A stretch of DNA of 51,046 nucleotides. Origin: a virus. Both the position numbers and the translations under genes were made by a program. Shown here in pieces: positions 38-51,046 of this stretch (the stretch's first letter is position 1; each line of letters opens with the position of its first letter). Below the pieces are notes generated by a model. It saw only the letters and a list, made by a program, of their open reading frames with translations. It ran no database searches and was not told the origin of the DNA. Where the stretch lies: the UHGV virus genome UHGV-1266211; one strand, given 5' to 3'.

Positions 38-54
38 AGAACACTTTCTTAAAT
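38..54. repeat. Putative attL core (17-bp direct repeat)
   Basis: agaacactttcttaaat identical to 50993-51009, 140 bp from the integrase start. Confidence 0.4.
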
Positions 55-3592: not shown

Positions 3593-6403
3593 TTATGCCT
3601 GAGTACGCAGCGCTTCAAGGCGGCGCAGGTCGAAGTCGTTCAGTTCGTCGGTGTAATCAGCGGTGATCGGCGCTGGCCATTCGCCAGTGTCAAAGCCGGT
3701 AGCGATAGCGCGCATCGCCTTGCGGTACTCGAGCATGCCCAGCTCTAGCAGTTCAGCGGATGCCTCGATGATGGCGATCCAGTGGTAGTTCTCGTCTTTG
3801 TTGACGAAAATCCAGAAGAACTGGTCAAGTGCCGCGGTCTCGCAATACATGGCGGCGCTCAGGTGATAGTCACGGTCGATGATTTCCCGGTGCAGTTTGG
3901 CGCGCAGACCTTCCTGCTTAATGTTCCACATGCTGATGGTTTTAAGGTCGGCACCGATGCGTACCCCGTCCAAGTCGATCTCAAGGTCAGGACGCACGCG
4001 GACTTCAAGTCCGGTTTCGTCGTCAAAGCCAAAATAGCTCACCTCAACAGCGCGGCTCGGATGCTGAAGCAGCATCCCGGCGGTTGGGTGCTTTAGCAGG
4101 GCTTTCTGAATGGCCAGTGCGGTGCTCAGCTGCTGGCGGGTGACCAGCACTTTCCCATGCGGATTCTCGCGCCACGCATCCAACAACTCGTCGGCGAATA
4201 CGGCTTCCGGATTAACAGACTTCACGGCCTGAATCAGGTCTGATTTGGTACCGGACACTTTCAGTGGTTGGGGCTTCTGCGCCTCCTGTGCAACCAAGTC
4301 AGGATTGATGATTGCCAGCTGCTCGAGCAGCGCGTCACGGCTACCGCTGGTTTTCACCTGCGGCGGCAGGGTGGCGTTGTACTCTTTGATGCAGGCTTTC
4401 ATCGCCGCTGCGGTCTGCTTCTGGTCCGCTTCGATCCGCTGGTACTCTTCTGGCAGCGACATGTAGCTCTGGCCAGTTTCCTCGACTGAACCACCCAGTG
4501 GCACCTGAGCAGGCAGTGTGGCGTTGTATTCTTCCAACAACGCTTTGATGTCGTCGGCGCTCAATTGCGCTGGCAGGCTGGCGTTGTACTCATCGATAAA
4601 CGCGCGGATTGTTGCCGTTGTGGTGAACGCGCCTTCCGGGATCATCGGTTCAACGCTGAACTCTTCATCAAGCTGCTCTGGCTGCAACGCAAGGCCGTGC
4701 ACCAGGTTACCCATGTCCAGTACCGGAGAACGCTCTTTGGTGATCGTTTTGGCAACGTGGCGCGCATTGAAGTACATCAGCGATACACGCGCATCTTTCA
4801 CCTGGGTTGAGCTGATACCGTTCGCTGCGTGATAAACCTCGTTCGGCAACCCTTCATAGCGGCCTGGCTCAAAGTAAGCAGGGTAAACAACAGCCGGTTC
4901 GTCAGAATGAGATTCTGGCTCGGTTTGTGCCGCAACTGGTTCAGTTTGGTTTACAGAATCGCTGTTTTGGCTAACAGAATCCGCATTCTGGTTTACATCG
5001 GCCTGCTGGCCGGTATGTGACTCTTCACCAGTTTCCAGACTGCTTTCTCCTGACTGCACTTCATCACCAGCCTGTTCTTCATCACTGACAGTTTCTTCCA
5101 TCTGCACATTGCTGGTGGTTTCCTCATTAAGTGGTGAACGGTCATCTGTTTGTGTTTGTTGATCACCCATCAGGCCATCAATGGAGAATACGCCGTTGCC
5201 CATGTTGGCGATTTGTGGCTGTTTAGCAGCTGTTTTCTGCTCTGCAGCGACCTGCTCATTAAACTCATTTTCCCAACTGACGTCCGGCGCATGACCAGCA
5301 TCAGCCAGCGTTTCTTCTGAGGGGTTTGAGTGGTCATTTTCGGTTAGATTGGCATTGATATATGCCCGCAACCGCCCAGGAAAGTTAACCAATTCGGATG
5401 ATGTGCCGCGGATGAGTGCAAAGATGGCGGCGCGTGAATAGTCCAGGATGCCAGCGGTTTTGCGCAGCGCCTCAGACCATTCGCTGAACGGACTTTCTTT
5501 CTTGCTGACAATCTCTTTAGCGCGGCGGTAGACCCCACCAGGTATGTCGTAGATATTGAAATCCATTGGCAAGGTGGCCAGCGCAATTTCAACATCCAGA
5601 GTGTCCAGTGTGTGGACGTAGTCGGTATTGCGATCGGTCTTATTTCCACCGCCAGCATTGGTTTTGACGTCAGTGCGTTGAATCTGCACAACACGGTTGC
5701 CTTTCTGCCATTCCTTGACCAGCAGGCCACGGTCGATGTAATCAGTGTTGAACCACACCGTCAGGAACTGGATAACTGTTGCCAGTTCCGGTTTTTTACC
5801 GTCGACAGGGAAGGCTTTCTTAACGGCATTCACGACTTTATGGATATCGTGCTCAATGGCTTTTTTGAATGCTTCCACATTCTCAGCAGCCAGCAGCAGG
5901 TTTTGGGCGTACGCGTTATCAGTGTCCATCTCAAGGCGGACAATCTCGTTTTTCTGACCAGCGTCGACGTGATAGAGATATTCACCATCACCGATGAACT
6001 GAGCCAGTACGCGCTGACGGAATGGCAGGGTGGCAACGACGATCAGGTTCGGCTGCTCTGACTGCTGAGATTCTTCTGCGGTGCTGTCTTCAGTATCCGC
6101 GTCGTCGACAGACTCATCTTCAGCCTGTTGTTTAACATTCCAGGTGCGCTGGTCTTCAGCCAGTTCGTAACGATCGCACCATGTGAAATCAACTTCGCCT
6201 TCTTCTGGCAGGTCGTTGTACACCGGGAAATCAGTGCGAATAGGTTTGGCGTAGTCCTTACCACGGCCGGTTTCGATGCCTGCATCTTCCAGTGCAACAT
6301 CCAGCTGCAGGTTGGCGCGAGCCTCGGTTTTCGCAGTGAACCAGACCACTGCATCTTGTTTTCCGGATTTCTGAGTGGCTTTAACCACATTAAAGAATTC
6401 CAT
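3593..6403 (-). CDS. recE: RecE-like exonuclease VIII (large, C-terminal nuclease domain)
   Basis: 936 aa, acidic low-complexity N-terminal two-thirds and globular C-terminal domain, directly upstream of the annealing protein as in Rac recE-recT; contains three tandem ~20-aa repeats (EYNA[ST]LP[AP]Q). Confidence 0.7.
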   Translation of the reverse strand: MEFFNVVKATQKSGKQDAVVWFTAKTEARANLQLDVALEDAGIETGRGKDYAKPIRTDFPVYNDLPEEGEVDFTWCDRYELAEDQRTWNVKQQAEDESVDDADTEDSTAEESQQSEQPNLIVVATLPFRQRVLAQFIGDGEYLYHVDAGQKNEIVRLEMDTDNAYAQNLLLAAENVEAFKKAIEHDIHKVVNAVKKAFPVDGKKPELATVIQFLTVWFNTDYIDRGLLVKEWQKGNRVVQIQRTDVKTNAGGGNKTDRNTDYVHTLDTLDVEIALATLPMDFNIYDIPGGVYRRAKEIVSKKESPFSEWSEALRKTAGILDYSRAAIFALIRGTSSELVNFPGRLRAYINANLTENDHSNPSEETLADAGHAPDVSWENEFNEQVAAEQKTAAKQPQIANMGNGVFSIDGLMGDQQTQTDDRSPLNEETTSNVQMEETVSDEEQAGDEVQSGESSLETGEESHTGQQADVNQNADSVSQNSDSVNQTEPVAAQTEPESHSDEPAVVYPAYFEPGRYEGLPNEVYHAANGISSTQVKDARVSLMYFNARHVAKTITKERSPVLDMGNLVHGLALQPEQLDEEFSVEPMIPEGAFTTTATIRAFIDEYNASLPAQLSADDIKALLEEYNATLPAQVPLGGSVEETGQSYMSLPEEYQRIEADQKQTAAAMKACIKEYNATLPPQVKTSGSRDALLEQLAIINPDLVAQEAQKPQPLKVSGTKSDLIQAVKSVNPEAVFADELLDAWRENPHGKVLVTRQQLSTALAIQKALLKHPTAGMLLQHPSRAVEVSYFGFDDETGLEVRVRPDLEIDLDGVRIGADLKTISMWNIKQEGLRAKLHREIIDRDYHLSAAMYCETAALDQFFWIFVNKDENYHWIAIIEASAELLELGMLEYRKAMRAIATGFDTGEWPAPITADYTDELNDFDLRRLEALRTQA

Positions 6404-42982: not shown

Positions 42983-45900
42983 ATGGAAGCGATCACTGGT
43001 GCAAAGGGTGGCAGCCAGAAGCAGCACACACCTGTAGAACAGCCCGATTCGGCTCAGTCAATGGCGCGCTGCCGCATGCTGCTGGCGCTCGGGGAGGGGG
43101 AGTTTGCTGGTGGCCTGGATGCGACCCGGATATTCCTGGACGGTACGCCGTTGGGAAACCCCGACGGAACGATGAATTTTGAAAATGTGTCATGGGATTT
43201 CCGGCCTGGCACACAGACCCAGACACCAATACCGGGATTCCCTGCAGTCGAGAATGAAACTACGGTTGGGGTATCGCTGACAAAGGCCACACCATGGACC
43301 CGCGCACTGAGTAACACCCAGATTGACGCGGTGCTGGTTCGTATTGGCATCCCTGGGTTACAGCAGCAGGAAAACGATGGGGATATTGTCGGCACTACGG
43401 TTCAGTACCATATTGATCTGGCGGTGGACGGTGGCGCTTACTCGACAGTCATGACGAAAACCGTCACAGAGAAGCTCAGCTCGCTCTATGAACTAACCCA
43501 CCGTATTAATCTTCCCAAAGCCAGCACTGGCTGGCAAATTCGAGTGGTGCGTGACACCGATGACAGCACCAGCCAGATGCTGCAGAACAAAACGCAGGTG
43601 CAAGCGATTACTGAAGTGATCGATGCTCGCCTGCGATATCCACACACAGCGCTGCTGTACGTGTCCTTTAACGCAAAGTCATTCAACAACATCCCTAAGA
43701 TTTCCTGCATGCCGAAGGGGCGCATCATCCGAATCCCTTCGAACTATGATCCAATAGCGCGGACTTATAGCGGAACATGGGACGGGACGTTTAAATGGGG
43801 CTGGACGAATAACCCGGCGTGGATTTGGTTCGATGTTCTGACTGAGCCGCGCTTCGGCCTTGGGCGCCGCGTGACGCCAGAAATGCTCGATAAGTGGGAG
43901 CTCTATCGCATCGCCCAGCGCTGCGACCAGAAGGTACCCGACGGGAAAGGCGGAAGCGGTACCGAGCCACGCTTCATGTTTGACGTTTACATCCAGTCCC
44001 AGGCTGATGCCTGGCAGGTGATTAAAGATATTGCCGCGGGCTTCAACGGAATGACTTTCTGGGGCAACAACATGTTCAATGTTGTCTCTGACATGCCGGC
44101 GGACACTACGAAGTTGCAGATCCTCACTCGCGCATCAGTGGTGGGTAAGCCGGTGTACTCGAGTGGCAGTGAGAAAAACCGATTCTCCAGCGCGCTGATT
44201 AACTTCAGCGATCCGGATAACCACTACCAGGACCGCACCACGGCAGTGATGTTTCCGGAACTGGTAAGGCAGTTCAAGTTTAAGCAGACACAAATCACTG
44301 CGATCGGTTGTACGCGTGAGAGCGAGGCGCAGCGGCGTGGCGGGTGGGCGGTGTATTCCAACTCCCTTGACCGCATTATCACGCTTCAGACTGGACTTGA
44401 TGGCTTTGTATTCGTGCCGGGCACCGTATTTGCGTTTGCAGATGAACGCCTGTCAGGGCGCGTTTACGGCGGGCGTATCACCGGGTATAACGCTGGTCTT
44501 AAGGCCGTGACCATTGACCGGGGCACCAGTGCGGTGGCGGGCGATACGCTGATGATTCGCACCCAGGGCGGTACCGTTGAAAGCCGGGTGATACAGGCCG
44601 TAAATGGCACGCAGCTGATCCTGTCCACGCCGTTCACGGCGGCGCCATTACCTAATGCCGTATTCGTCATTGATGCTGGTCAGCTGCGCCTGCAGTATTT
44701 CCGGGTAACGAACCTAAAATTTGATGATGAGGAAAACACCTTCACCATTACCGGTGCGGAGTATAACGCGTCGAAATACGACGCCGTTGATAACAATGCT
44801 CGCCTCGATACTCCTCCGATAAGCCTGATTCCGACCGGGCTAGTTAACCAGCCGACCAACATCGTGGTATCGAGCTATGATGCGGTTCGCCAGGGGCAAC
44901 GCGTGGCCACGCTAACCGCCTCGTGGGATGCGCCAATTGATAAAGACGGCAAACTGCAGTCGGACGTAATAGCGTACCGGGCACAGTGGAAGCGCGGAAA
45001 TAACGAATGGGTAAACGTGCCTGAAACCGGGTTACGAAATATCGAAGTGCCTGGCATTTTCGAGGGCGATTACCTTGTGCGCGTCCGTGCGATTAACTCT
45101 GGGGGAGCGTCCAGCCTTTGGGCCACGTCTGCGTTGACCCATCTTACCGGCCGCACCGGTGAAGTGCCCAAACCTGTCGGACTAACAGCAACAGAGGATG
45201 TTGTATTTGGGATCAACATTACATGGGGTTTCCCCGCAGATACCGCCGACACCCTGAGCACGGAACTGCAATACAGCGCTTCAGTCGATGGGGCAAATCC
45301 AATGCTTTTGGCGTCGGTGCCGTATCCTCAGAAACTCTATCAGCAGATGGGGCTGAAGGCAGGGCAGGAATTCTGGTACCGGGCACGGCTGGTTGACCGC
45401 ATCGGGAATCAGAGCGACTGGACAGACTGGGTGCGCGGGCAGGCCAGCATCGATGTTTCCGATATCACCGATGCAATCCTGGAGGACATGAAAGGCTCCG
45501 ATACGTTCAAAGACCTGATCGAGAACGCGGTGGACAGCAATGAAAAAATTGCTGGCATGGCTGACGAAATTAAAAACCATGCCGACGAACTCGAGCAGCA
45601 GGCGAAAGACATCCTGGAGAACGCTGACGGGCTGGCTCAGGCCGAAGTGAAGATCGACGAGATTTCTGTGTCGATGGACGGCATGACGGGAGGAGTGAAG
45701 AACTCGGCAATCGCGATTATTCAGAATGGGCTGGCGCAGGTGGTAAGCCGTCGCTCGCAGACCGCCACGAACGCCGGGAACAGTGCCAGTATAGACAGAG
45801 TGGATACTACGATTGCCGATACCAGCCAGGCGGTCGCACGCGCGCTGGTCACACTGGATGCAGAAGCTGGTGGCAATATCTCTAACTCAACGGACCTGAC

Positions 45901-46462
45901 AGAAACTCTTGCTGATTTCACCCAGGCTTCGGCAACAAAAATCAACACTCTGACTGTTAAATCAGGCGAAAACAGTGCAGCGATAAACGTCAACGCACAG
46001 GCTATAGCAGATGTAAACGGTAACCTCAGCGCGATGTATAACATCAAGGTGGGGGTGTCCAGTAACGGGCAGTATTACGCTGCCGGGATGGGTATTGGGG
46101 TTCAAAATACACCCTCCGGCATGCAGTCACAGGTAATCTTCCTGGCAGACCGTTTCGCCGTGACTACTATGGTCGGCGGGACTGTAACACTGCCGTTCGT
46201 TATCCAGAATGGCCAGGCCATTATCAGGGATACAGTCATTGGCGACGGGACCATAAGCAATGCAAAAATTGGCAATTACATCCAGTCGAACAATTATGTT
46301 GCCGGCTCTGTTGGCTGGAAACTGGATAAGTCCGGGACGTTTGAGAACTACGGTTCGACAGCTGGGGAGGGAGCCATGAAGCAGACCAACCAGACAATCA
46401 GCGTCAAGGATGGCAACAACGTTCTGAGAGTGCAGGTTGGCCGATTAACGGGGGTGTTCTGA
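42983..46462 (+). CDS. Host specificity protein J (central tail fiber / tip)
   Basis: 1159 aa, position after I, fibronectin-like middle region. Confidence 0.9.
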   Translation: MEAITGAKGGSQKQHTPVEQPDSAQSMARCRMLLALGEGEFAGGLDATRIFLDGTPLGNPDGTMNFENVSWDFRPGTQTQTPIPGFPAVENETTVGVSLTKATPWTRALSNTQIDAVLVRIGIPGLQQQENDGDIVGTTVQYHIDLAVDGGAYSTVMTKTVTEKLSSLYELTHRINLPKASTGWQIRVVRDTDDSTSQMLQNKTQVQAITEVIDARLRYPHTALLYVSFNAKSFNNIPKISCMPKGRIIRIPSNYDPIARTYSGTWDGTFKWGWTNNPAWIWFDVLTEPRFGLGRRVTPEMLDKWELYRIAQRCDQKVPDGKGGSGTEPRFMFDVYIQSQADAWQVIKDIAAGFNGMTFWGNNMFNVVSDMPADTTKLQILTRASVVGKPVYSSGSEKNRFSSALINFSDPDNHYQDRTTAVMFPELVRQFKFKQTQITAIGCTRESEAQRRGGWAVYSNSLDRIITLQTGLDGFVFVPGTVFAFADERLSGRVYGGRITGYNAGLKAVTIDRGTSAVAGDTLMIRTQGGTVESRVIQAVNGTQLILSTPFTAAPLPNAVFVIDAGQLRLQYFRVTNLKFDDEENTFTITGAEYNASKYDAVDNNARLDTPPISLIPTGLVNQPTNIVVSSYDAVRQGQRVATLTASWDAPIDKDGKLQSDVIAYRAQWKRGNNEWVNVPETGLRNIEVPGIFEGDYLVRVRAINSGGASSLWATSALTHLTGRTGEVPKPVGLTATEDVVFGINITWGFPADTADTLSTELQYSASVDGANPMLLASVPYPQKLYQQMGLKAGQEFWYRARLVDRIGNQSDWTDWVRGQASIDVSDITDAILEDMKGSDTFKDLIENAVDSNEKIAGMADEIKNHADELEQQAKDILENADGLAQAEVKIDEISVSMDGMTGGVKNSAIAIIQNGLAQVVSRRSQTATNAGNSASIDRVDTTIADTSQAVARALVTLDAEAGGNISNSTDLTETLADFTQASATKINTLTVKSGENSAAINVNAQAIADVNGNLSAMYNIKVGVSSNGQYYAAGMGIGVQNTPSGMQSQVIFLADRFAVTTMVGGTVTLPFVIQNGQAIIRDTVIGDGTISNAKIGNYIQSNNYVAGSVGWKLDKSGTFENYGSTAGEGAMKQTNQTISVKDGNNVLRVQVGRLTGVF

Positions 46463-46463
46463 T

Positions 46464-46766
46464 ATGGCTTATGGAATACAGACCTGGGATGCTTCGGGAA
46501 ACCCCAACAACTACGGAATCAAGCCCGTTTCCGTTGTTGGACGTATACAACTTGCCGCCGGACAAAACTCCGGCAGCTGGTCTTTCACTGTACCCTCAGG
46601 AATGAAGGTCGGTTTTGCGCTCTCACTTGATGAAGGAGGTAACAGCGTAGGGAGGAGCATTGTCGCGTCAGGGAACACAATAACCGTAACCGCAGCCTCT
46701 TCTGTGGGCCTGGGTAATTACCCGGCCTCTAAATGTGAGGTGGTCGTTTTCATGGAGAAAGCATAA
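46464..46766 (+). CDS. Hypothetical tail-associated protein
   Basis: 100 aa coupled to J; shares WDASG / SGSW motifs with the next gene. Confidence 0.5.
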   Translation: MAYGIQTWDASGNPNNYGIKPVSVVGRIQLAAGQNSGSWSFTVPSGMKVGFALSLDEGGNSVGRSIVASGNTITVTAASSVGLGNYPASKCEVVVFMEKA

Positions 46767-47440
46767 TGGCCGAATTTGGCGCGATGATATTAATGGATAA
46801 CGGGAATCCCTTTGTAACGCCACAATCAACGCCTTTCTGTCTTTACGGGAAGTATACCTTCAATTCATCCGCGAATGGCAGTTCTCAGCAGGTTGCTCAA
46901 AATATCGCTTTAAACGCTGATTACCCAGTGATGGTTTTTATCAAAACCACCAATACAGCACAGCCCACTCCGGTTATGTCTTACAGGAACGGCGGTAATG
47001 TGTATGTTGCTGGTGTTAATCCCTACAACCAAAGTTTCACTTTAACGGCGTACGTTTTTGCCATATTCCCGCAGATATTACCGAAATGGGGTTTGGCAAT
47101 ATGGGATGCGAGCGGAAAGCTTGTGTTAACTAATGAGTCCCGTGTGCTATCAGACCTGCAGACGGTTGGCACGCCTGGTGCAAACGGCGGGATAAATATT
47201 GACCAGACGCTGAGCGGGTCATGGGCCGTTGCACCTGCTCAGTTGGGTCAGACCATCATTGTGAATAATTCAACCCAGCCTCCGACTATCTACACGATAA
47301 ATGCTTATTCTTCATGCAGGTTTGACGGGGCCAATACGAGGATAAACGCAGGGGGGACCTCCACTGGGGCAGGTTCACCTGGAGGGGGAACGAATACTGG
47401 CATTTCATTAACCGCCATAAATACAGCGGCCTATGATTGA
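46766..47440 (+). CDS. Hypothetical tail-associated protein
   Basis: 224 aa; ATGA-type coupling. Confidence 0.5.
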   Translation: MAEFGAMILMDNGNPFVTPQSTPFCLYGKYTFNSSANGSSQQVAQNIALNADYPVMVFIKTTNTAQPTPVMSYRNGGNVYVAGVNPYNQSFTLTAYVFAIFPQILPKWGLAIWDASGKLVLTNESRVLSDLQTVGTPGANGGINIDQTLSGSWAVAPAQLGQTIIVNNSTQPPTIYTINAYSSCRFDGANTRINAGGTSTGAGSPGGGTNTGISLTAINTAAYD

Positions 47441-47551
47441 TTGATCGTTTTTAGCGATCAATAACATAATATTGATCTATCCAATCAATTATACCCACCA
47501 GAATTGTATTGGTATCGTCTAAGATACTGAATTCCTCTGGATACTATCAAA

Positions 47552-47785
47552 ATGAGAAAACTGATTATCTGCATGGCAGGCGCTGTCATGCTTACAGGAT
47601 GCGCTGGCGTAATTGAGAAACAGGAACCAGTTTGCAGCGGCACTGCAATCGTTGGCGGTCAGGAAACTACGGTTCAGATTTACGGTGTGCGTAAACAAAA
47701 CAACCAGACGCAGTACCGGGCTGGATATCCTTTCAGCTGGCGCTGGGTAAGTGCGAATACATTTACCGAAACAACCTGCAAATAA
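47552..47785 (+). CDS. Small lipoprotein (Cor/Llp-like candidate)
   Basis: 77 aa, signal peptide plus lipobox LTGC; between J-region genes and the tail fiber. Confidence 0.6.
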   Translation: MRKLIICMAGAVMLTGCAGVIEKQEPVCSGTAIVGGQETTVQIYGVRKQNNQTQYRAGYPFSWRWVSANTFTETTCK

Positions 47786-47806
47786 CCCACTACGCTTAAA
47801 CATAAA

Positions 47807-47829
47807 CCTCGCTCCGGCGGGGTTTTTTT
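47807..47829 (+). terminator. Rho-independent terminator
   Basis: cctcgc-tccg-gcgggg plus T7. Confidence 0.55.
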
Positions 47830-47845
47830 ATTGCCTGGAGAAAAT

Positions 47846-49432
47846 ATGCTTTATAACACCGGCACCATCGCCATTAATGGAAATACCGCCACCGGGACGG
47901 GTACAAACTGGACGGCACCGGCCAGCCAGGTCCGCGCTGGCCAGACGATCATCGTCATGTCTAACCCGGTGCAGATGTTCCAGATTTCATCTGTGAACAG
48001 CGCCACGTCAATGACGGTTACGCCTGCTGCTTCCCCGGCGCTGAGCGGCCAGAAGTATGGAATCCTGGTGTCCGATAACATCTCTGTCGACGGACTGGCG
48101 CAGGCGATGTCGCAGCTCATCAAAGAGTATGACGAGAACATTGGCGCGTGGGAGACATTCGCCACTACCTCAGCAAACCAGACCATCACCGTTACCATCA
48201 ACGGAACCTCCGTTAATATTCCAAGTATTGGCGCGCTTGCCAGAAAGGGGTCCAACAACGATATCACCGAGCTGAAAGGGCTCACAACTGCGCTTTCTGT
48301 TGCACAGGGCGGGACTGGGGCAAAGACCGAAGCTGACGCTCGCACAAACCTCGGTTTAGGAAGTAGCGCGACGAAGGACGTCGGAACGGCGGCCGGAACC
48401 GTGGCAGCCGGGGATGATTCGCGGTTGAATACTGTCGATAAAAAAACAGGGGGAAATGTTACCGGCAGTTTGATGGTAACTCAGGGAAATAGTATTGGAG
48501 TATCCACGCAGGAAGGTGGTGATAAGGCTGTTAAGCTATACAACATTACAGGGGATGGGACTGTCGGAAGTTATGTAAACGCTGTGGGAGGAGCTTGGTA
48601 TAATGGGAACTGGTCTCTTGGCGGCGTTCGGGGGAGTGGGACTAATTTAGACAGAGCGCAGTTAAATGTAAATAGCGGAACTGGTACGGCGGGTTCATTT
48701 TTATTTTACCCTGATGAGAGATTCAAATCATCTTCGTGTGGAGCAAATGGAGCTGGATATGGTGGCTCCTGGTCAGACATTAATACATGGCAAAGAAATA
48801 TATCTTTTTTTAGGGGTAATGTTGCAGTTAATAATGATGCTGGTTTCATTCCCTTTGCCCGCTGGCATAGTCAATGCAGTGGCGGATATTCTTCAACGGT
48901 AGGGCTTGGTTCTATAGCTACCGGGCCTAGTCCGTGGGCGGATGTGGCAATAACAACACTTGGGGATGGTGGCTCTGCCGGTCAGCGTATATTTCAATTC
49001 ACGACAGCAAACGGTGATATATATGCCAACGCTGGTGGGAATCTTTCCGGGAACTATATTTTCCAGAAGCAGCCTAACTGTGACATTACGCTGAAGCACG
49101 ATATTAAATATGATGATGGTTATCAGTCATACGAGAATATCAGGAAATTCCTGCCAGCAACTTACGTCTACAACGATGACCCTCGTGAGAGAGTTCGCCG
49201 AGGTGTAATCGCTCAGGACGTCATGAAGATTGATAGTGAGTACGTAAAGCTGGTCCCTGCTGCGCCAAAGTTTGATAGTGAAGGAAACAGGGTTGATGCT
49301 GATGATACGTTGGCACTGGATAACAACGTCATCATGCTTGATACCGTGCTGGCATTGAACTACGTCATTAAACAGCTGGAGACAACACAGAAAGAGCTCC
49401 AGGAGCTTAAGCTAAAAATAGCGGCATCATGA
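47846..49432 (+). CDS. Side tail fiber protein (C-terminal part inside the invertible segment; C-terminal intramolecular chaperone-like domain)
   Basis: GGAG RBS, ATG 47846; constant N-terminal part to ~48408; C-terminal ...NCDITLKHDIKYDDG... chaperone-like tail. Confidence 0.8.
   Translation: MLYNTGTIAINGNTATGTGTNWTAPASQVRAGQTIIVMSNPVQMFQISSVNSATSMTVTPAASPALSGQKYGILVSDNISVDGLAQAMSQLIKEYDENIGAWETFATTSANQTITVTINGTSVNIPSIGALARKGSNNDITELKGLTTALSVAQGGTGAKTEADARTNLGLGSSATKDVGTAAGTVAAGDDSRLNTVDKKTGGNVTGSLMVTQGNSIGVSTQEGGDKAVKLYNITGDGTVGSYVNAVGGAWYNGNWSLGGVRGSGTNLDRAQLNVNSGTGTAGSFLFYPDERFKSSSCGANGAGYGGSWSDINTWQRNISFFRGNVAVNNDAGFIPFARWHSQCSGGYSSTVGLGSIATGPSPWADVAITTLGDGGSAGQRIFQFTTANGDIYANAGGNLSGNYIFQKQPNCDITLKHDIKYDDGYQSYENIRKFLPATYVYNDDPRERVRRGVIAQDVMKIDSEYVKLVPAAPKFDSEGNRVDADDTLALDNNVIMLDTVLALNYVIKQLETTQKELQELKLKIAAS
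48378..48408. repeat. Left inverted repeat / inversion crossover site
   Basis: acgtcggaacggcggccggaaccgtggcagc, exact reverse complement of 50189-50219; encodes ...GTVAA in both fiber frames. Confidence 0.65.
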
Positions 49433-49448
49433 ATCCTGAGCATTCAAC

Positions 49449-49479
49449 TGCAGCCCGTTCCGGCAAATTACGGGCTGCA
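49449..49479. terminator. Palindromic hairpin between the two convergent fiber cassettes
   Basis: tgcagcccg-N13-cgggctgca, 9-bp perfect stem. Confidence 0.45.
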
Positions 49480-49485
49480 AATTAT

Positions 49486-50188
49486 TCAGCTTCCTTGTTC
49501 CAGTTTTTCCACCTTACTCGTCAAATTATCGACCCTAACCATTAGGGCCAGAATTGCCTCATGGTGCAAAGCTGCAGCAACCCCGTAAGTATCGACAGTT
49601 TTCACATCAGGAATAACTGTTCCGTCCTCCAGAGTAATATCATAGCCACCTTTAACAGCTTCGGGAAATACTTGCTCAACGTCCTGTGCAATAAAGCCGT
49701 AACCCGTAGTTTCATTGTCTATACGCTCCCAAAAGCAGCCTTTAATGGCTTTCATCTTTATGAGAGGATCGGATATGCGCGCGATGTCTTTTTTTATACG
49801 CGCATCTGAGAGCGATACCCATTGACCACCAGTGCCACGACCATCAGGGTAAAACATAAACGATGCGGCTGCCCCACCAGATTCCGCTATCACATTTAAC
49901 TGAACACGATCAAGTGGAGTCGAGCCGCTCCGTATTGCACCTAGCGCCCATGAACCGCTATACCACTTACCAACTATCTGGTTTACATAATTGCCCTGAG
50001 ATGAATCATTTGTCGTATTATTCATCTCAATGGAGTTATCACCGCCACTTCCCTTTCTGACCCCTAAACCACCGCCGGCATTTGTATGCCAGTCAGTTGC
50101 TCCGCCACCAACACCGTTGATCGTCACAGCAGATGAAATCGTCCCCCCCGTTTTACCGTTAACGCTTCCAAGCCGTGAATCGTCGCCA
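49486..50188 (-). other. Silent alternative tail-fiber C-terminal cassette (no own start; expressed only after inversion)
   Basis: Frame continuous with the right inverted repeat; shares ...GDDSRL..., ...W Y.G.W.LG..R.G.T.LDR.QLNV... with the active C-terminus; ends with ...SLSDARIKKDI... chaperone motif. Confidence 0.7.
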
Positions 50189-50219
50189 GCTGCCACGGTT
50201 CCGGCCGCCGTTCCGACGT
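50189..50219. repeat. Right inverted repeat / inversion crossover site
   Basis: Exact reverse complement of 48378-48408. Confidence 0.65.
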
Positions 50220-50314
50220 TCCTTGTGGCGCTGTCTCCTAAACCGACGTTTTATAGATTGCTCTCGAGCGGCCTGGCCGATAACTTCACCTGATTTTTTT
50301 GCAGAAATAACTGG

Positions 50315-50872
50315 GTGAAAAATATGCAAATTGGCTATGTCAGAGTGTCAACAAATGACCAAAATACAGATCTCCAGCGCCAAGCTCTCGAACGCGCAGG
50401 ATGTGAACAGGTTTTTGAAGAAAAAATGAGCGGGACGGTAGCGAACCGGCCAGCGCTCAAAAAGCTTCTGCGGACTCTGAATGCGGGCGATACACTGGTG
50501 GTGTGGAAGCTGGACAGGATAGGCCGCAACGTTCTGCATGCGCTGTTGATGTTCCAGCAGTTACAGGAAAAGGGTATCAACTTCCGCAGTATTACCGATG
50601 GCGTGGATCTCAAAACAGCCAGCGGCCGCTATAACTTTCGTAACATCCTTTCCGCAGCACAATATGAATCTGATCTTAATAGCGAACGTACCTTAGCAGG
50701 GCTGGCCGTAGCCAGGGCAAAATGGCGAGTTGGTGGTCGCAGGCCTAAGTTCACGGATGAGCAATGGCGGGAAATGGGGGAGCGGATGGCAACCGGTGAA
50801 TCACGACAAAGCGTATCAAAAACGTATGGAGTAGGGCTCTCAACTCTGTATAAAAAGTTTCCAGCTAGCTGA
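50315..50872 (+). CDS. pin: Serine recombinase, DNA invertase of the Hin/Gin/Cin/Pin family
   Basis: MQIGYVRVSTNDQNTDLQ...TLVVWKLDRIGRN... catalytic Ser, C-terminal HTH ...GLSTLYKKFPA; collinear with Pin/Hin. Confidence 0.9.
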   Translation: MKNMQIGYVRVSTNDQNTDLQRQALERAGCEQVFEEKMSGTVANRPALKKLLRTLNAGDTLVVWKLDRIGRNVLHALLMFQQLQEKGINFRSITDGVDLKTASGRYNFRNILSAAQYESDLNSERTLAGLAVARAKWRVGGRRPKFTDEQWREMGERMATGESRQSVSKTYGVGLSTLYKKFPAS

Positions 50873-50992
50873 TAACGGGAAAGAAACAGAGAAGGGCACA
50901 AATATTGTGTACTTTAATGTGCCCTTTAATTTATTGATTGGTGGTTGAATTGTCAGTAACTTTTTGATTTAAGTGAAAAATTCTAATAAATT

Positions 50993-51009
50993 AGAACACT
51001 TTCTTAAAT
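50993..51009. repeat. Putative attR core (17-bp direct repeat)
   Basis: Identical to 38-54. Confidence 0.4.
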
Positions 51010-51046
51010 GGTTTCACTGAAACGTGTTCATAGACTCCTGCCGCTA

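What the first reader, a model, noticed from the sequence alone, without database searches (positions are those of the whole stretch)
47846..50872. Hin/Gin/Pin-type invertible tail-fiber switch with two alternative C-termini, each carrying its own chaperone-like domain
A perfect 31-bp inverted repeat (48378-48408 and 50189-50219) flanks a ~1.8-kb segment. Inside it are the C-terminal ~340 codons of the active fiber gene and, convergently on the other strand, a silent 234-codon cassette with no start codon whose frame runs through the right repeat; both frames encode GTVAAGDDSRL across the repeat. A Pin-like serine invertase lies immediately outside. The two cassettes share a conserved core but differ elsewhere, consistent with two receptor specificities. 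Unlike Mu, P1 or e14, no separate tail-fiber assembly gene is present; both cassettes instead end with a motif resembling the C-terminal intramolecular chaperone of S74-type fibers (SDARIKKDI in the silent cassette, CDITLKHDI in the active one).
Basis: seen in the sequence. Interest (0 to 1): 0.6.

Follow-up and report, generated by a model that had tools for sequence, protein, structure and literature searches.

The report
Invertible phage tail-fibre switch, self-chaperoned cassettes
A complete phi80-like prophage of E. coli carries a working Gin/Pin-type DNA-inversion switch that swaps the receptor-binding end of its side tail fibre between two versions. The mechanism is a well-known one; the twist is that each version has its own built-in folding (S74) domain instead of a separate assembly gene.

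Summary

**What is there**
- A 1,894-bp segment (48352-50245) holds two convergent tail-fibre C-terminal cassettes.
- Both cassettes carry a Pfam Peptidase_S74 intramolecular-chaperone domain.
- An intact serine invertase, 55% identical to Mu Gin, lies just outside the segment.

**Main correction**
- Strand exchange does not occur in the perfect 31-bp repeat.
- It occurs in 26-bp gix-like sites (…AAACC-TC-GGTTT…) at the outer edge of a longer 79-nt inverted repeat.

**Decisive evidence**
- Flipping the window in silico at the TC core gives a sequence 100.000% identical over 5,723 bp to another E. coli assembly.
- The native orientation is 100% identical to several other assemblies.
- The flipped 421-aa fibre is on record on 34 contigs and the native 528-aa fibre on 85.
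- Chimeras expected from exchange inside the 31-bp block are not on record.

**Other points**
- No tail-fibre assembly gene was found anywhere in the prophage.
- The active cassette has Cys, not Ser, at the S74 nucleophile position, as does phage N15 gp25.

**Novelty**
- The mechanism is canonical (Mu G, P1 C, e14 P).
- A tail-fibre inversion locus with a gin recombinase was shown experimentally in an Enterobacter phage in 2025-26.
- I found no description of the self-chaperoned cassette layout, although it is widespread.
- Verdict: a modest new variant of a known kind.

The parts
38..54 (+). attL core (AGAACACTTTCTTAAAT). Together with 50993-51009 it shows that the window holds the whole prophage.
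   Evidence: A 17-bp direct repeat identical to the annotated att core of mEp237 and overlapping the phi80 attP core. An integrase lies at 184-1434.
47552..47785 (+). cor (superinfection exclusion lipoprotein), the gene immediately upstream of the fibre gene.
   Evidence: phrog_1119, E 7e-37. The order J - gp22 - gp23 - cor - fibre is the same as in phi80 and N15.
47804..47835 (+). Terminator-like hairpin plus T-run between cor and the fibre gene.
   Evidence: Consensus scan. The same position is annotated as a terminator in phi80, mEp237 and HK225.
47846..48351 (+). Constant 5' part of the fibre gene (about 169 codons, ending …ARTNL), which lies outside the invertible segment.
   Evidence: ORF and translation. 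67-98% identical (best tblastn segment) in 28 loci from GTDB species representatives, mostly Enterobacteriaceae. 24 of these 28 loci have the motif AAACCTCGGTTT, 23 of them at the end of the constant part.
48339..48364 (+). Left 26-bp crossover site, CTCGCACAAACC-TC-GGTTTAGGAAGT, with core TC at 48351-48352. It encodes NLGLG.
   Evidence: Shares AAACCTCGGTTTA with Mu gix, read from the Mu genome. It fits the 26-bp sites tabulated for EC958 prophages and the Sandmeier consensus (PMC4134206). Natural inversion endpoints fall in 48351-48361.
48352..50245 (.). Invertible segment, 1,894 bp.
   Evidence: Reverse-complementing exactly this stretch reproduces E. coli contig JBEWRX010000002.1 (L050) with 0 mismatches over 5,723 bp.
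48346..48424 (+). Left arm of the 79-nt, 85% inverted repeat. It contains the perfect 31-bp block 48378-48408.
48353..49432 (+). Cassette A, currently expressed: 359 codons plus stop, an N15 gp25-type fibre tip with a C-terminal S74 domain.
   Evidence: Pfam PF13884 at residues 412-467 of the 528-aa fibre, E 1.9e-9. 64% identical to phage N15 gp25 (P0204). The same cassette is called as a detached 319-aa ORF (P0136, 33 contigs) where it is silent.
49079..49081 (+). Cys412 codon (TGT) at the S74 nucleophile position, with Lys at +5 (CDITLK).
   Evidence: The spacing matches Ser1264/Lys1269 of T5 pb1 (PMC4690869).
49449..49479 (.). 10-bp G+C-rich hairpin in the 53-bp spacer between the convergent cassettes. 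It may be a bidirectional transcript end.
   Evidence: RNA fold -20.9 kcal/mol, z = -3.0. It did not pass the terminator consensus scan.
49486..50244 (-). Cassette B, currently silent: 252 codons plus stop, with a C-terminal S74 domain whose nucleophile is Ser146 (codon 49809-49807) and Lys at +5 (SDARIK).
   Evidence: Pfam PF13884, E 2.7e-12. In the AF2 model the S74 part has pLDDT 82-95, and the top Foldseek hit is the MyRF ICA domain 7DC3 (E 1e-4, TM 0.63-0.66). Residues 70-250 are 52-55% identical to EP335 gp13 and other lytic coliphage fibres.
50173..50251 (-). Right arm of the 79-nt inverted repeat. It contains the perfect 31-bp block 50189-50219.
50233..50258 (-). Right 26-bp crossover site, read on the minus strand as ATCTATAAAACG-TC-GGTTTAGGAGAC (core at 50246-50245). 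Its outer half holds an in-frame TAA (50253-50251) that closes the silent frame.
   Evidence: The outer half-site is identical to that of the E. coli CX prophage, where inversion is seen between clonal isolates.
50324..50872 (+). Serine DNA invertase, 182 aa, with catalytic Ser9 in GYVRVST. It lies outside the invertible segment.
   Evidence: Pfam Resolvase + HTH_7. phmmer against Mu Gin 3UJ3, E 4.5e-62, aligned end to end without gaps. 55% identical to Gin. This exact allele is listed in 1,205 blocks of the public collection.
50324..50420 (+). First ~32 codons of the invertase gene, the candidate position of a Fis-dependent recombinational enhancer.
   Evidence: Synonymous-codon identity to Mu gin is 16/26 here against 23/73 in the rest of the gene (Fisher p = 0.01). 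This is inference only; Fis binding was not tested.
50993..51009 (+). attR core.

Best explanation
This is an active Gin/Pin-type site-specific inversion switch at the right end of a complete phi80-like E. coli prophage.

**How it works**
- The fibre gene has a fixed 5' part (47846-48351) that ends in the codons for NLGLG.
- Those codons are themselves a 26-bp gix-like recombination site. A second such site lies in inverted orientation at 50233-50258.
- The invertase encoded just outside (50324-50872) pairs the two sites, cuts at the central TC dinucleotide and inverts the 1,894 bp between them.
- Inversion fuses the fixed part in frame to either cassette A (528-aa fibre, N15 gp25-like tip) or cassette B (421-aa fibre, EP335 gp13-like tip).
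- The unexpressed cassette has no start codon and is closed by a TAA in the outer half-site.
- Each cassette ends in a Peptidase_S74 intramolecular chaperone domain. This domain is expected to drive trimerisation and folding of its own tip and then cut itself off. The folding helper therefore travels with the cassette and no separate tfa gene is needed.

**Shown here**
- The anatomy described above.
- Both orientations of this exact element in nature.
- The crossover mapped to an 11-bp interval.
- S74 membership of both cassettes by sequence, and of cassette B by predicted fold.

**Inferred**
- That this invertase, rather than one acting in trans, does the inversion.
- Dependence on Fis.
- Autoproteolysis, particularly for the Cys form of cassette A.
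- That the two tips bind different receptors and so change host range.
For: **Inversion of this element in nature**
- The window flipped at the TC core is 100.000% identical over 5,723 bp to L050 (GCA_040537855.1). The native form is 100% identical to L043 and L010-L012.
- Exact look-up finds the flipped 421-aa product on 34 contigs (P0121) and the native 528-aa product on 85 (P0135).
- The detached 319-aa ORF of cassette A (P0136) is on 33 contigs.

**Position of the crossover**
- Sequence differences at 48350 and 48362 confine the exchange to 48351-48361.
- Products expected from exchange inside the 31-bp block are not on record.
- In clonal E. coli isolates CX07, CX15 and CX21, a related three-cassette locus differs only by inversions. 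Their junctions fall in the same 12-bp core, including between sites with no flanking homology.
- The site resembles Mu gix and the published 26-bp crossover sites.

**Invertase**
- Domains and the alignment to Gin, with the catalytic Ser conserved.

**S74 domains**
- Pfam hits for both cassettes.
- Foldseek match of cassette B to the MyRF ICA domain.
- EP335 gp13, a homologue of cassette B, was shown by mass spectrometry to self-cleave (PMC8217332).

**No tfa gene**
-.

**Possible sign of mixed orientations**
- 9 of 28 contigs from other species end within 400 bp of the site.
Against: - No read-level data were available for the genome the window comes from. Ongoing switching in this particular strain is therefore not shown.
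- Fis enhancer evidence is indirect.
- Cassette A has Cys in place of the catalytic Ser. Its full-length model was poor (pLDDT 64) and gave no useful PDB match. Self-cleavage of cassette A is therefore unproven.
- The receptors of both tips are unknown.
- Orientation differences between assemblies show that inversion happened in the lineage, not how often it happens.
Confidence: 0.88

Rival explanations
1. The inversion is made by general (RecA-dependent) homologous recombination between the 79-nt / 31-bp inverted repeats, and the invertase plays no part.
For: The arms share a perfect 31-bp block and 85% identity over 79 nt. This is near the minimum length for homologous pairing.
Against: - The natural flipped copy places the exchange in 48351-48361, outside the 31-bp block.
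- The two chimeric proteins that exchange within the block would make are not in a collection of about 15 billion proteins. The core-site product is there on 34 contigs.
- In the CX isolates, inversion joins sites that share only the 12-bp core.
Confidence: 0.03
2. The switch is a fossil in this genome. It inverted in the past, but the element in the window is now locked, as appears to be the case in phi80, mEp237 and HK225.
For: - phi80 keeps pinL, but the core-motif scan found no crossover site in its fibre-invertase region. In the isolated phages phi80, mEp237 and HK225, dinI-type genes or pseudogene fragments lie where the window has its second cassette.
- No reads from the source strain were available.
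Against: - Here both sites, both cassette frames and the invertase are intact.
- The two orientations differ by zero substitutions over 5.7 kb, so the inversion is very recent.
- The same invertase allele sits beside many different cassette sets.
Confidence: 0.07
3. The S74 domain of cassette A does not cleave, because Cys replaces the nucleophilic Ser. It would act only as a permanent C-terminal trimerisation domain, or need another factor.
For: - Cys412 is at the nucleophile position.
- Published work on T5 pb1 shows that cleavage depends on this Ser (S1264A blocks it; PMC4690869).
- The model of cassette A was too poor to test the active-site geometry.
Against: - The Cys is conserved with Lys at +5 in 81 of 263 retrieved proteins (169 have Ser, 13 have no motif), including phage N15 gp25 and a second, unrelated cassette family. 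It alternates with Ser among close relatives. That pattern is expected of an equivalent nucleophile, not of decay.
- The rest of the Pfam model is matched end to end.
Confidence: 0.25

Closest known systems
Phage Mu G segment with Gin (likewise P1 C/Cin, e14 P/Pin, p15B Min)
   Same: - A small serine invertase lies just outside the segment. It aligns to Gin end to end without gaps and is 55% identical.
- The crossover sites are 26 bp, in inverted orientation, and lie inside the fibre coding sequence.
- The core AAACCTCGGTTTA is the same and both fibres read NLGL at the junction.
- The layout is a constant 5' fibre part plus two convergent 3' cassettes.
   Different: - Mu carries a tail-fibre assembly gene (U / U') inside the segment next to each S cassette. 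Here there is none; each cassette has a fused S74 domain instead.
- The host phage is a phi80/N15-type lambdoid siphovirus rather than a myovirus.
- The cassettes show no detectable similarity to the variable (G-segment) part of Mu S.
Invertible tail-fibre regions of E. coli EC958 prophages Phi1, Phi2 and Phi4 (PMC4134206)
   Same: - Inversions of 2-3 kb were seen as alternative contigs.
- The 26-bp crossover sites sit at the ends of longer imperfect inverted repeats. For example, Phi2 has …TTACC-TT-GGTTTAGGAGAA, against the window's GGTTTAGGAAGT and GGTTTAGGAGAC.
   Different: In those prophages the major fibre has Phage_fibre_2 repeats and a tail-collar domain, and each allele has a co-transcribed minor tail-fibre gene. 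No S74 domain is reported.
Tail-fibre 'shufflon' of Enterobacter phage FRφ (PMC13418256; bioRxiv 2025, Nat Microbiol 2026)
   Same: - It is a temperate lambdoid phage with a fibre gene whose 3' end is swapped among alternative C-termini by a downstream gin.
- Switching was shown by long reads in the lysogen and in virions, and was abolished by Δgin.
- Only one isoform infects the test host.
- The constant part and the cassette families of the window are common in Enterobacter.
   Different: - FRφ has three cassettes.
- The paper does not mention S74 or chaperone domains.
- I could not obtain the FRφ sequence, so homology to the window is untested.
phi80 gp25 / pinL region, and phages mEp237, HK225 and mEpX1
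   Same: - Same attachment site and same gene order (J, gp22, gp23, cor, fibre, invertase, att).
- 88-99% DNA identity in the flanks.
- The C-terminal two-thirds of the invertase is of the same type.
   Different: - In phi80, mEp237 and HK225, dinI-type genes or pseudogene fragments lie where the window has its second cassette. In phi80 the core-motif scan found no crossover site.
- HK225 uses a classical fibre plus tfa pair.
Peptidase_S74 / intramolecular chaperone domains (K1F endosialidase, T5 pb1, EP335 gp13, MyRF ICA)
   Same: - Pfam PF13884 is matched over the full model in both cassettes.
- The nucleophile and the Lys at +5 have the same spacing as T5 pb1 Ser1264/Lys1269.
- The model of cassette B superposes on MyRF ICA.
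- Cassette B is 52% identical to EP335 gp13, whose self-cleavage was measured.
   Different: - In none of the characterised examples cited here (T5 pb1, EP335 gp13) is the domain described as part of an invertible segment.
- Cassette A has Cys in place of Ser.
R64-type shufflons (Rci)
   Same: Multiple inversions swap the C-termini of an adhesin. The related CX and Pseudocitrobacter loci have 3-4 sites.
   Different: From general knowledge, R64 shufflons use a tyrosine recombinase (Rci) and sfx sites and act on the pilus adhesin PilV. Here the enzyme is a serine invertase. 'Shufflon' is an analogy, not membership.

Membership tests
Gin/Pin/Cin/Hin DNA-invertase systems | Small serine recombinase (~180-190 aa) with an N-terminal resolvase catalytic domain and a C-terminal HTH domain. 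| tested here: met
   PF00239 at E 1e-38 plus PF02796 at E 1.6e-9; 182 aa. phrog_125 'DNA invertase', E 2e-75.
Gin/Pin/Cin/Hin DNA-invertase systems | Catalytic serine in the N-terminal YxRVST motif, and closer to invertases than to resolvases. | tested here: met
   GYVRVSTNDQ aligns with Gin residues 4-13. Gin 3UJ3 scores E 4.5e-62, against E 1e-22 for γδ resolvase.
Gin/Pin/Cin/Hin DNA-invertase systems | Two 26-bp crossover sites in inverted orientation, each made of imperfect half-sites around an identical 2-bp core. | tested here: met
   Sites at 48339-48364 and 50233-50258, both with core TC. 13/13 bases match Mu gix around the core. They fit the published sites and consensus.
Gin/Pin/Cin/Hin DNA-invertase systems | Inversion actually occurs, with exchange at the core. 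| tested here: met
   Both orientations are found in public assemblies at 100% identity, with the exchange confined to 48351-48361. Clonal CX isolates differ by inversions at the same core.
Gin/Pin/Cin/Hin DNA-invertase systems | Fis-dependent recombinational enhancer in cis, which lies in the 5' end of the invertase gene in Gin, Cin and Hin (general knowledge). | tested here: inconclusive
   There is excess synonymous-site identity to gin in codons 1-32 (16/26 against 23/73, p = 0.01). No Fis-site model or binding test was run.
Classical invertible fibre cassette of Mu S-U type | Each alternative fibre 3' end is accompanied by its own tail-fibre assembly (tfa / U) gene inside the segment. | tested here: not met
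   Only 53 bp lie between the cassettes. Mu U, Mu U' and HK225 Tfa have no match anywhere in the window (best E = 1). Pfam finds only S74 in the cassettes.
Peptidase_S74 / intramolecular chaperone auto-processing domain | Sequence match to PF13884 above the gathering score, at the C-terminus of a fibre or spike. | tested here: met
   Cassette A scores 38.1 bits and cassette B 47.2 bits against a cutoff of 22, covering model positions 1-57/58 and 1-58/58.
Peptidase_S74 / intramolecular chaperone auto-processing domain | Ser nucleophile with Lys five residues downstream. | tested here: inconclusive
   Cassette B meets it: S146…K151 in SDARIK. Cassette A has C412…K417 in CDITLK, so Lys is kept but Ser is replaced by Cys. 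The reference spacing comes from T5 pb1.
Peptidase_S74 / intramolecular chaperone auto-processing domain | ICA fold (helices and hairpin ending in a long C-terminal coiled-coil helix). | tested here: inconclusive
   Cassette B meets it: pLDDT 82-95, Foldseek to 7DC3 MyRF ICA at probability 1.00, TM 0.63-0.66, rmsd 2.9 Å. The cassette A model had mean pLDDT 64 and no informative hit.
Peptidase_S74 / intramolecular chaperone auto-processing domain | Autoproteolytic release of the domain after trimer folding. | not testable with these tools
   It was shown experimentally for EP335 gp13, a homologue of cassette B (PMC8217332), but not for these proteins.
R64-type shufflon | Tyrosine recombinase Rci acting on sfx sites. 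| tested here: not met
   The recombinase is a serine resolvase/invertase and the sites are gix-like.

The most novel reading that the evidence does not exclude
The most novel reading has two linked parts.

1. Fusing the folding chaperone to each cassette makes the cassette a fully self-contained unit behind a universal NLGLG/gix junction. This would explain why the same constant part and invertase carry many unrelated tips across Enterobacteriaceae, including both tfa-dependent and S74 types.
2. The Cys-Lys form of the S74 domain in cassette A and in N15 gp25 would be a working thiol version of this autoprotease. I found no description of such a version in the held library.
Probability: 0.45. 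Interest if true: 0.4.

Novelty: new variant of a known kind. Interest (0 to 1): 0.32.

Why it matters
Invertible tail-fibre switches are the classic way in which temperate phages hedge their bets on host range. This one shows a simpler cargo design: each swappable tip brings its own fused, presumably self-removing, folding domain, so one open reading frame is enough per specificity.

- That is useful for engineering phages or tailocins with exchangeable receptor-binding modules.
- It may explain the wide mix of tips found behind one conserved junction in E. coli, Enterobacter and related genera.
- It gives annotators a concrete rule. A 'tail fiber domain-containing protein' fragment lying convergent to a fibre gene and next to a 'recombinase family protein' is likely to be a silent cassette, not a pseudogene. 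Contig breaks at this point may reflect mixed orientations.
- The Cys-for-Ser variant offers a natural test of the S74 cleavage chemistry.

Tried and rejected
- **Literature.** Searches combining tail fibre, invertase or invertible with 'intramolecular chaperone' or Peptidase_S74 found no paper holding all the terms. A looser search gave only general or adjacent papers. The Johnson review on serine invertases (PMC4384473) is not held, so I read gix directly from the Mu genome.
- **Complete E. coli RefSeq genomes.** None contains this exact cassette pair. The exact copies were found in draft and GenBank assemblies through exact-protein look-ups.
- **Direct look-up of the flipped protein's contigs.** I reached the flipped locus through the invertase instead.
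- **Structure of the full 528-aa active fibre.** The model was poor (pLDDT 64) and its PDB matches were meaningless. It was not used.
- **FRφ-like loci.** I looked for flagellin/TldR genes downstream of the invertase in six related GTDB loci (five Enterobacter, one Pseudocitrobacter). Only ORFs of at least 150 aa were listed and read by eye; three begin with a UmuC-like N-terminus and none was recognised as flagellin, and none was run against Pfam. Homology of the window to FRφ therefore remains untested.
- **Inter-cassette hairpin as a terminator.** It folds well but fails the T-run criterion, so it is left as 'possible'.
- **W135 in the invertase as a private inactivating change** (relatives have Gly there). 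Rejected, because the exact allele is listed in 1,205 blocks of the collection.

Full report
**1. The observation**

It is the best-conserved part of a longer inverted repeat of 79 nt at 85% complementarity (48346-48424 / 50173-50251).

- The fibre ORF starts at ATG 47846, behind a GGAG, and ends at 49432 (528 aa).
- On the other strand a frame is open from 50250 down to the stop at 49486-49488.
- Both frames read …VGTAAGTVAAGDDSRL… across the repeat.
- Pfam finds Peptidase_S74 in both cassettes, above the gathering score and over the whole model (E 1.9e-9 and 2.7e-12).
- Pfam finds Resolvase + HTH_7 in the downstream gene. PHROGs calls the cassettes tail fibre and the gene a DNA invertase.

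**2. Context**

The window is a whole prophage. The 17-bp att core of phi80 and mEp237 (AGAACACTTTCTTAAAT) is at 38-54 and again at 50993-51009. Between the two copies lie:

- an integrase, RecT/RecE, a CI-type repressor, an O protein and a Q antiterminator;
- a J-like host-specificity protein, two small conserved genes and cor.

This is the phi80/N15 tail-end order. The flanks are 88-99% identical to phi80, mEp237, HK225 and mEpX1. Identical copies of window 43846-51046 sit next to yciI-tonB-yciA in E. coli assemblies.

**3. Where the DNA is exchanged**

At the outer edge of the long repeat I found AAACC-TC-GGTTTAGGA (48346-48361). Its inverted partner is AAACG-TC-GGTTTAGGA (50251-50236). These are the only two matches in the window, against 0.01 expected by chance.

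- The Mu genome gives gix as TTATCCAAAACC-TC-GGTTTACAGGAA. It shares 13 consecutive bases with the window's left site.
- In both Mu S and this fibre the site encodes NLGL.
- The sites also fit the 26-bp crossover sites and the consensus tabulated for the EC958 prophages (PMC4134206).

I reverse-complemented 48352-50245 in silico. The result is an in-frame 421-aa fibre.

**4. Does it invert?** Three independent lines of evidence say that it does.

*(a) Exact protein look-ups.*
- The predicted 421-aa flipped fibre is in the public collection on 34 contigs (P0121).
- The native 528-aa fibre is on 85 contigs (P0135).
- Cassette A also appears as a detached 319-aa ORF on 33 contigs (P0136), as expected when it is silent.

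*(b) The flipped locus itself.* I reached it through the invertase.
- The in-silico flipped window is 100.000% identical, with 0 mismatches and 0 gaps, over 5,723 bp to E. coli JBEWRX010000002.1 (L050).
- The native window is 100% identical to CP056396.1 (L043).
- The two arms differ at 48350 and at 48362, so the exchange must lie in the 11 bp from 48351 to 48361, around the TC core.
- Exchange inside the 31-bp block would give two other chimeric proteins. Neither is on record.

*(c) Clonal isolates with a related locus.* E. coli CX07, CX15 and CX21 carry a related three-cassette locus. The isolates differ only by inversions, and the junctions fall in the same 12-bp core. One junction joins two sites that share nothing but that core. 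This rules out homologous recombination as the mechanism in that locus.

A weaker sign comes from GTDB representative genomes. In 9 of the 28 loci that carry the constant part, the contig ends within 400 bp of the site. That is what short-read assemblers would do with mixed orientations.

**5. The invertase**

- It is 182 aa and aligns to Mu Gin end to end without gaps (phmmer E 4.5e-62). Identity is 55%, and the GYVRVST catalytic motif is present.
- It is a mosaic. Residues 1-65 match the CX07-type enzyme. Residues 66-182 match phi80 PinL and mEp237.
- A Trp where relatives have Gly (residue 135) is not a private defect. This exact allele is listed in 1,205 blocks of the collection, next to many different cassette sets.
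- The first 32 codons keep more synonymous identity to gin than the rest of the gene (16/26 against 23/73, p = 0.01). General knowledge places the Fis enhancer in the 5' end of the gin, cin and hin genes, so this fits an enhancer here. It is not proof.

**6. The cassettes**

From the crossover, cassette A is 359 codons and cassette B is 252. They are 44% identical over the first ~145 residues. Cassette A then has an extra ~100 residues. The two S74 domains are only ~25% identical.

*Cassette A*
- It is 64% identical to phage N15 gp25.
- It reads CDITLK where the family has its nucleophile Ser.
The Cys always comes with Lys at +5, alternates with Ser among relatives, and also occurs in N15 gp25 and in a second cassette family.
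- I read this as a working variant, but it is untested. The cassette A model was too poor to help.

*Cassette B*
- Its distal 180 residues are 52-55% identical to fibres of lytic coliphages.
- One of these is EP335 gp13, which binds O157 and O26 cells and was shown by mass spectrometry to cut off its C-terminal chaperone domain (PMC8217332).
- Cassette B has SDARIK, the same Ser…Lys(+5) spacing as Ser1264/Lys1269 of T5 pb1 (PMC4690869).
- The S74 part of its AF2 model is confident (pLDDT 82-95) and matches the MyRF ICA domain 7DC3.

*No separate assembly gene*
- Only 53 bp, holding a stable hairpin, separate the two cassettes.
- Mu U, Mu U' and HK225 Tfa find nothing in the window.

**7. Relatives**

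The same constant part, junction and invertase occur in Enterobacter, Pseudocitrobacter, Buttiauxella, Citrobacter and Franconibacter.

- Enterobacter sp. ECC-219 (L026) has the same S74(+) / S74(−) / invertase layout.
- Other loci have three or four sites.
- At the same E. coli locus, other strains carry classical fibre plus tfa pairs (annotated 'gp53-like domain-containing protein' ×2 and 'tail fiber assembly protein' ×2) or Phage_tail_C_2 tips.
- The isolated phages phi80, mEp237 and HK225 keep the invertase. In them, dinI-type genes or pseudogene fragments lie where the window has its second cassette. In phi80 the core-motif scan found no crossover site.

**8. What is known**

- Invertase-driven switching of fibre C-termini is textbook for Mu, P1, e14 and p15B. 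It has been seen in E. coli prophages by sequencing (PMC4272514; PMC4134206).
- A gin-dependent three-cassette fibre locus in the Enterobacter phage FRφ was shown by long reads and by a Δgin mutant (PMC13418256). That paper does not mention chaperone domains.
- A 2023 survey lists 'Tail fiber domain-containing protein' among the names enriched at predicted programmed inversions, without comment (PMC9881135). The same name is given by NCBI to the PF13884-carrying fibres retrieved here.
- I found no paper that describes invertible cassettes carrying their own S74 domain.

**9. Verdict**

This is a real and evidently functional switch of a well-known kind. The self-chaperoned cargo is a modest, widespread and apparently undescribed variant. 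Interest is low to moderate.

Noticed in passing
window 49079-49081 (Cys412 of the active fibre): Cys replaces the nucleophilic Ser of the S74 domain (CDITLK). Of the 263 proteins retrieved, 81 have this Cys, 169 have Ser and 13 have no motif. The Cys forms include phage N15 gp25 and a second cassette family (…NNCDERIK…), and Cys alternates with Ser among close relatives.
   Followed up: partly
window 50324-50872: The invertase is a mosaic. Residues 1-65 are near-identical (one difference) to the CX07-type, Gin-like enzyme. Residues 66-182 are of the phi80 PinL / mEp237 type. The join falls just after the stretch where an enhancer would lie.
   Followed up: partly
L003 / L004 / L005 (E. coli CX07, CX15, CX21; about 1.75 Mb in each chromosome): Clonal isolates carry a related three-cassette fibre locus in three different arrangements. 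This is a natural record of multiple inversions at three gix-like sites, one of them degenerate (TAAAGG-TC-GGTTT).
   Followed up: yes
L045 (E. coli CX15, CP081742.1 2811001-2821549): The same CX genome has a second prophage at yciI. It carries exactly the window's invertase allele and another three-cassette set (Phage_tail_C_2 plus two S74). One cell therefore holds two invertible fibre loci with similar sites. Action in trans, or cassette exchange between the two, is conceivable.
   Followed up: no
L015, L018, L020, L023, L025, L027, L028, L032, L034: In 9 of the 28 GTDB loci carrying the constant part, the contig ends within about 400 bp of the crossover site. This is probably assembly breakage caused by mixed orientations in the sequenced culture.
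   Followed up: partly
window 49489-50034 (distal part of the silent cassette): This part is 52-55% identical to tail fibres of unrelated lytic coliphages, including T5-like FFH_1 and phiAPCEc03, the podovirus EP335 (gp13) and ~68-kb Escherichia phages such as FEC19. EP335 gp13 binds O157 and O26 cells. This is a lead to the receptor of this cassette and a sign of exchange of tips between temperate and virulent phages.
   Followed up: partly
window 50251-50253 (minus strand): An in-frame TAA sits in the outer half of the right crossover site, two codons before the core. Whichever cassette lies there is therefore closed off from upstream translation.
   Followed up: yes
window 49449-49479: A stable 10-bp G+C-rich hairpin (-20.9 kcal/mol, z = -3.0) lies midway between the convergent cassettes. 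It would follow whichever cassette is expressed. It has no clear T-run.
   Followed up: partly
L001 (phi80), L006 (mEp237), L042 (HK225): These isolated phages keep the invertase gene. In them, dinI/msgA-type genes or pseudogene fragments lie where the window has its second cassette, and in phi80 the core-motif scan found no crossover site. The switch looks decayed in these laboratory phages. Their invertases also have a different N-terminal third.
   Followed up: partly
window 48378-48408 / 50189-50219, and L003 4349-4426 / 6308-6385: Within each element the repeat arms just inside the crossover sites are nearly identical to each other, yet they differ between elements. This suggests homogenisation (gene conversion) of the arms within an element on top of protein-level constraint on the GTVAAGDDSRL motif.
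   Followed up: no
window 47804-47835: A strong terminator-like hairpin lies directly between cor and the fibre start codon. Expression of the fibre presumably needs Q-mediated read-through or a promoter of its own.
   Followed up: no
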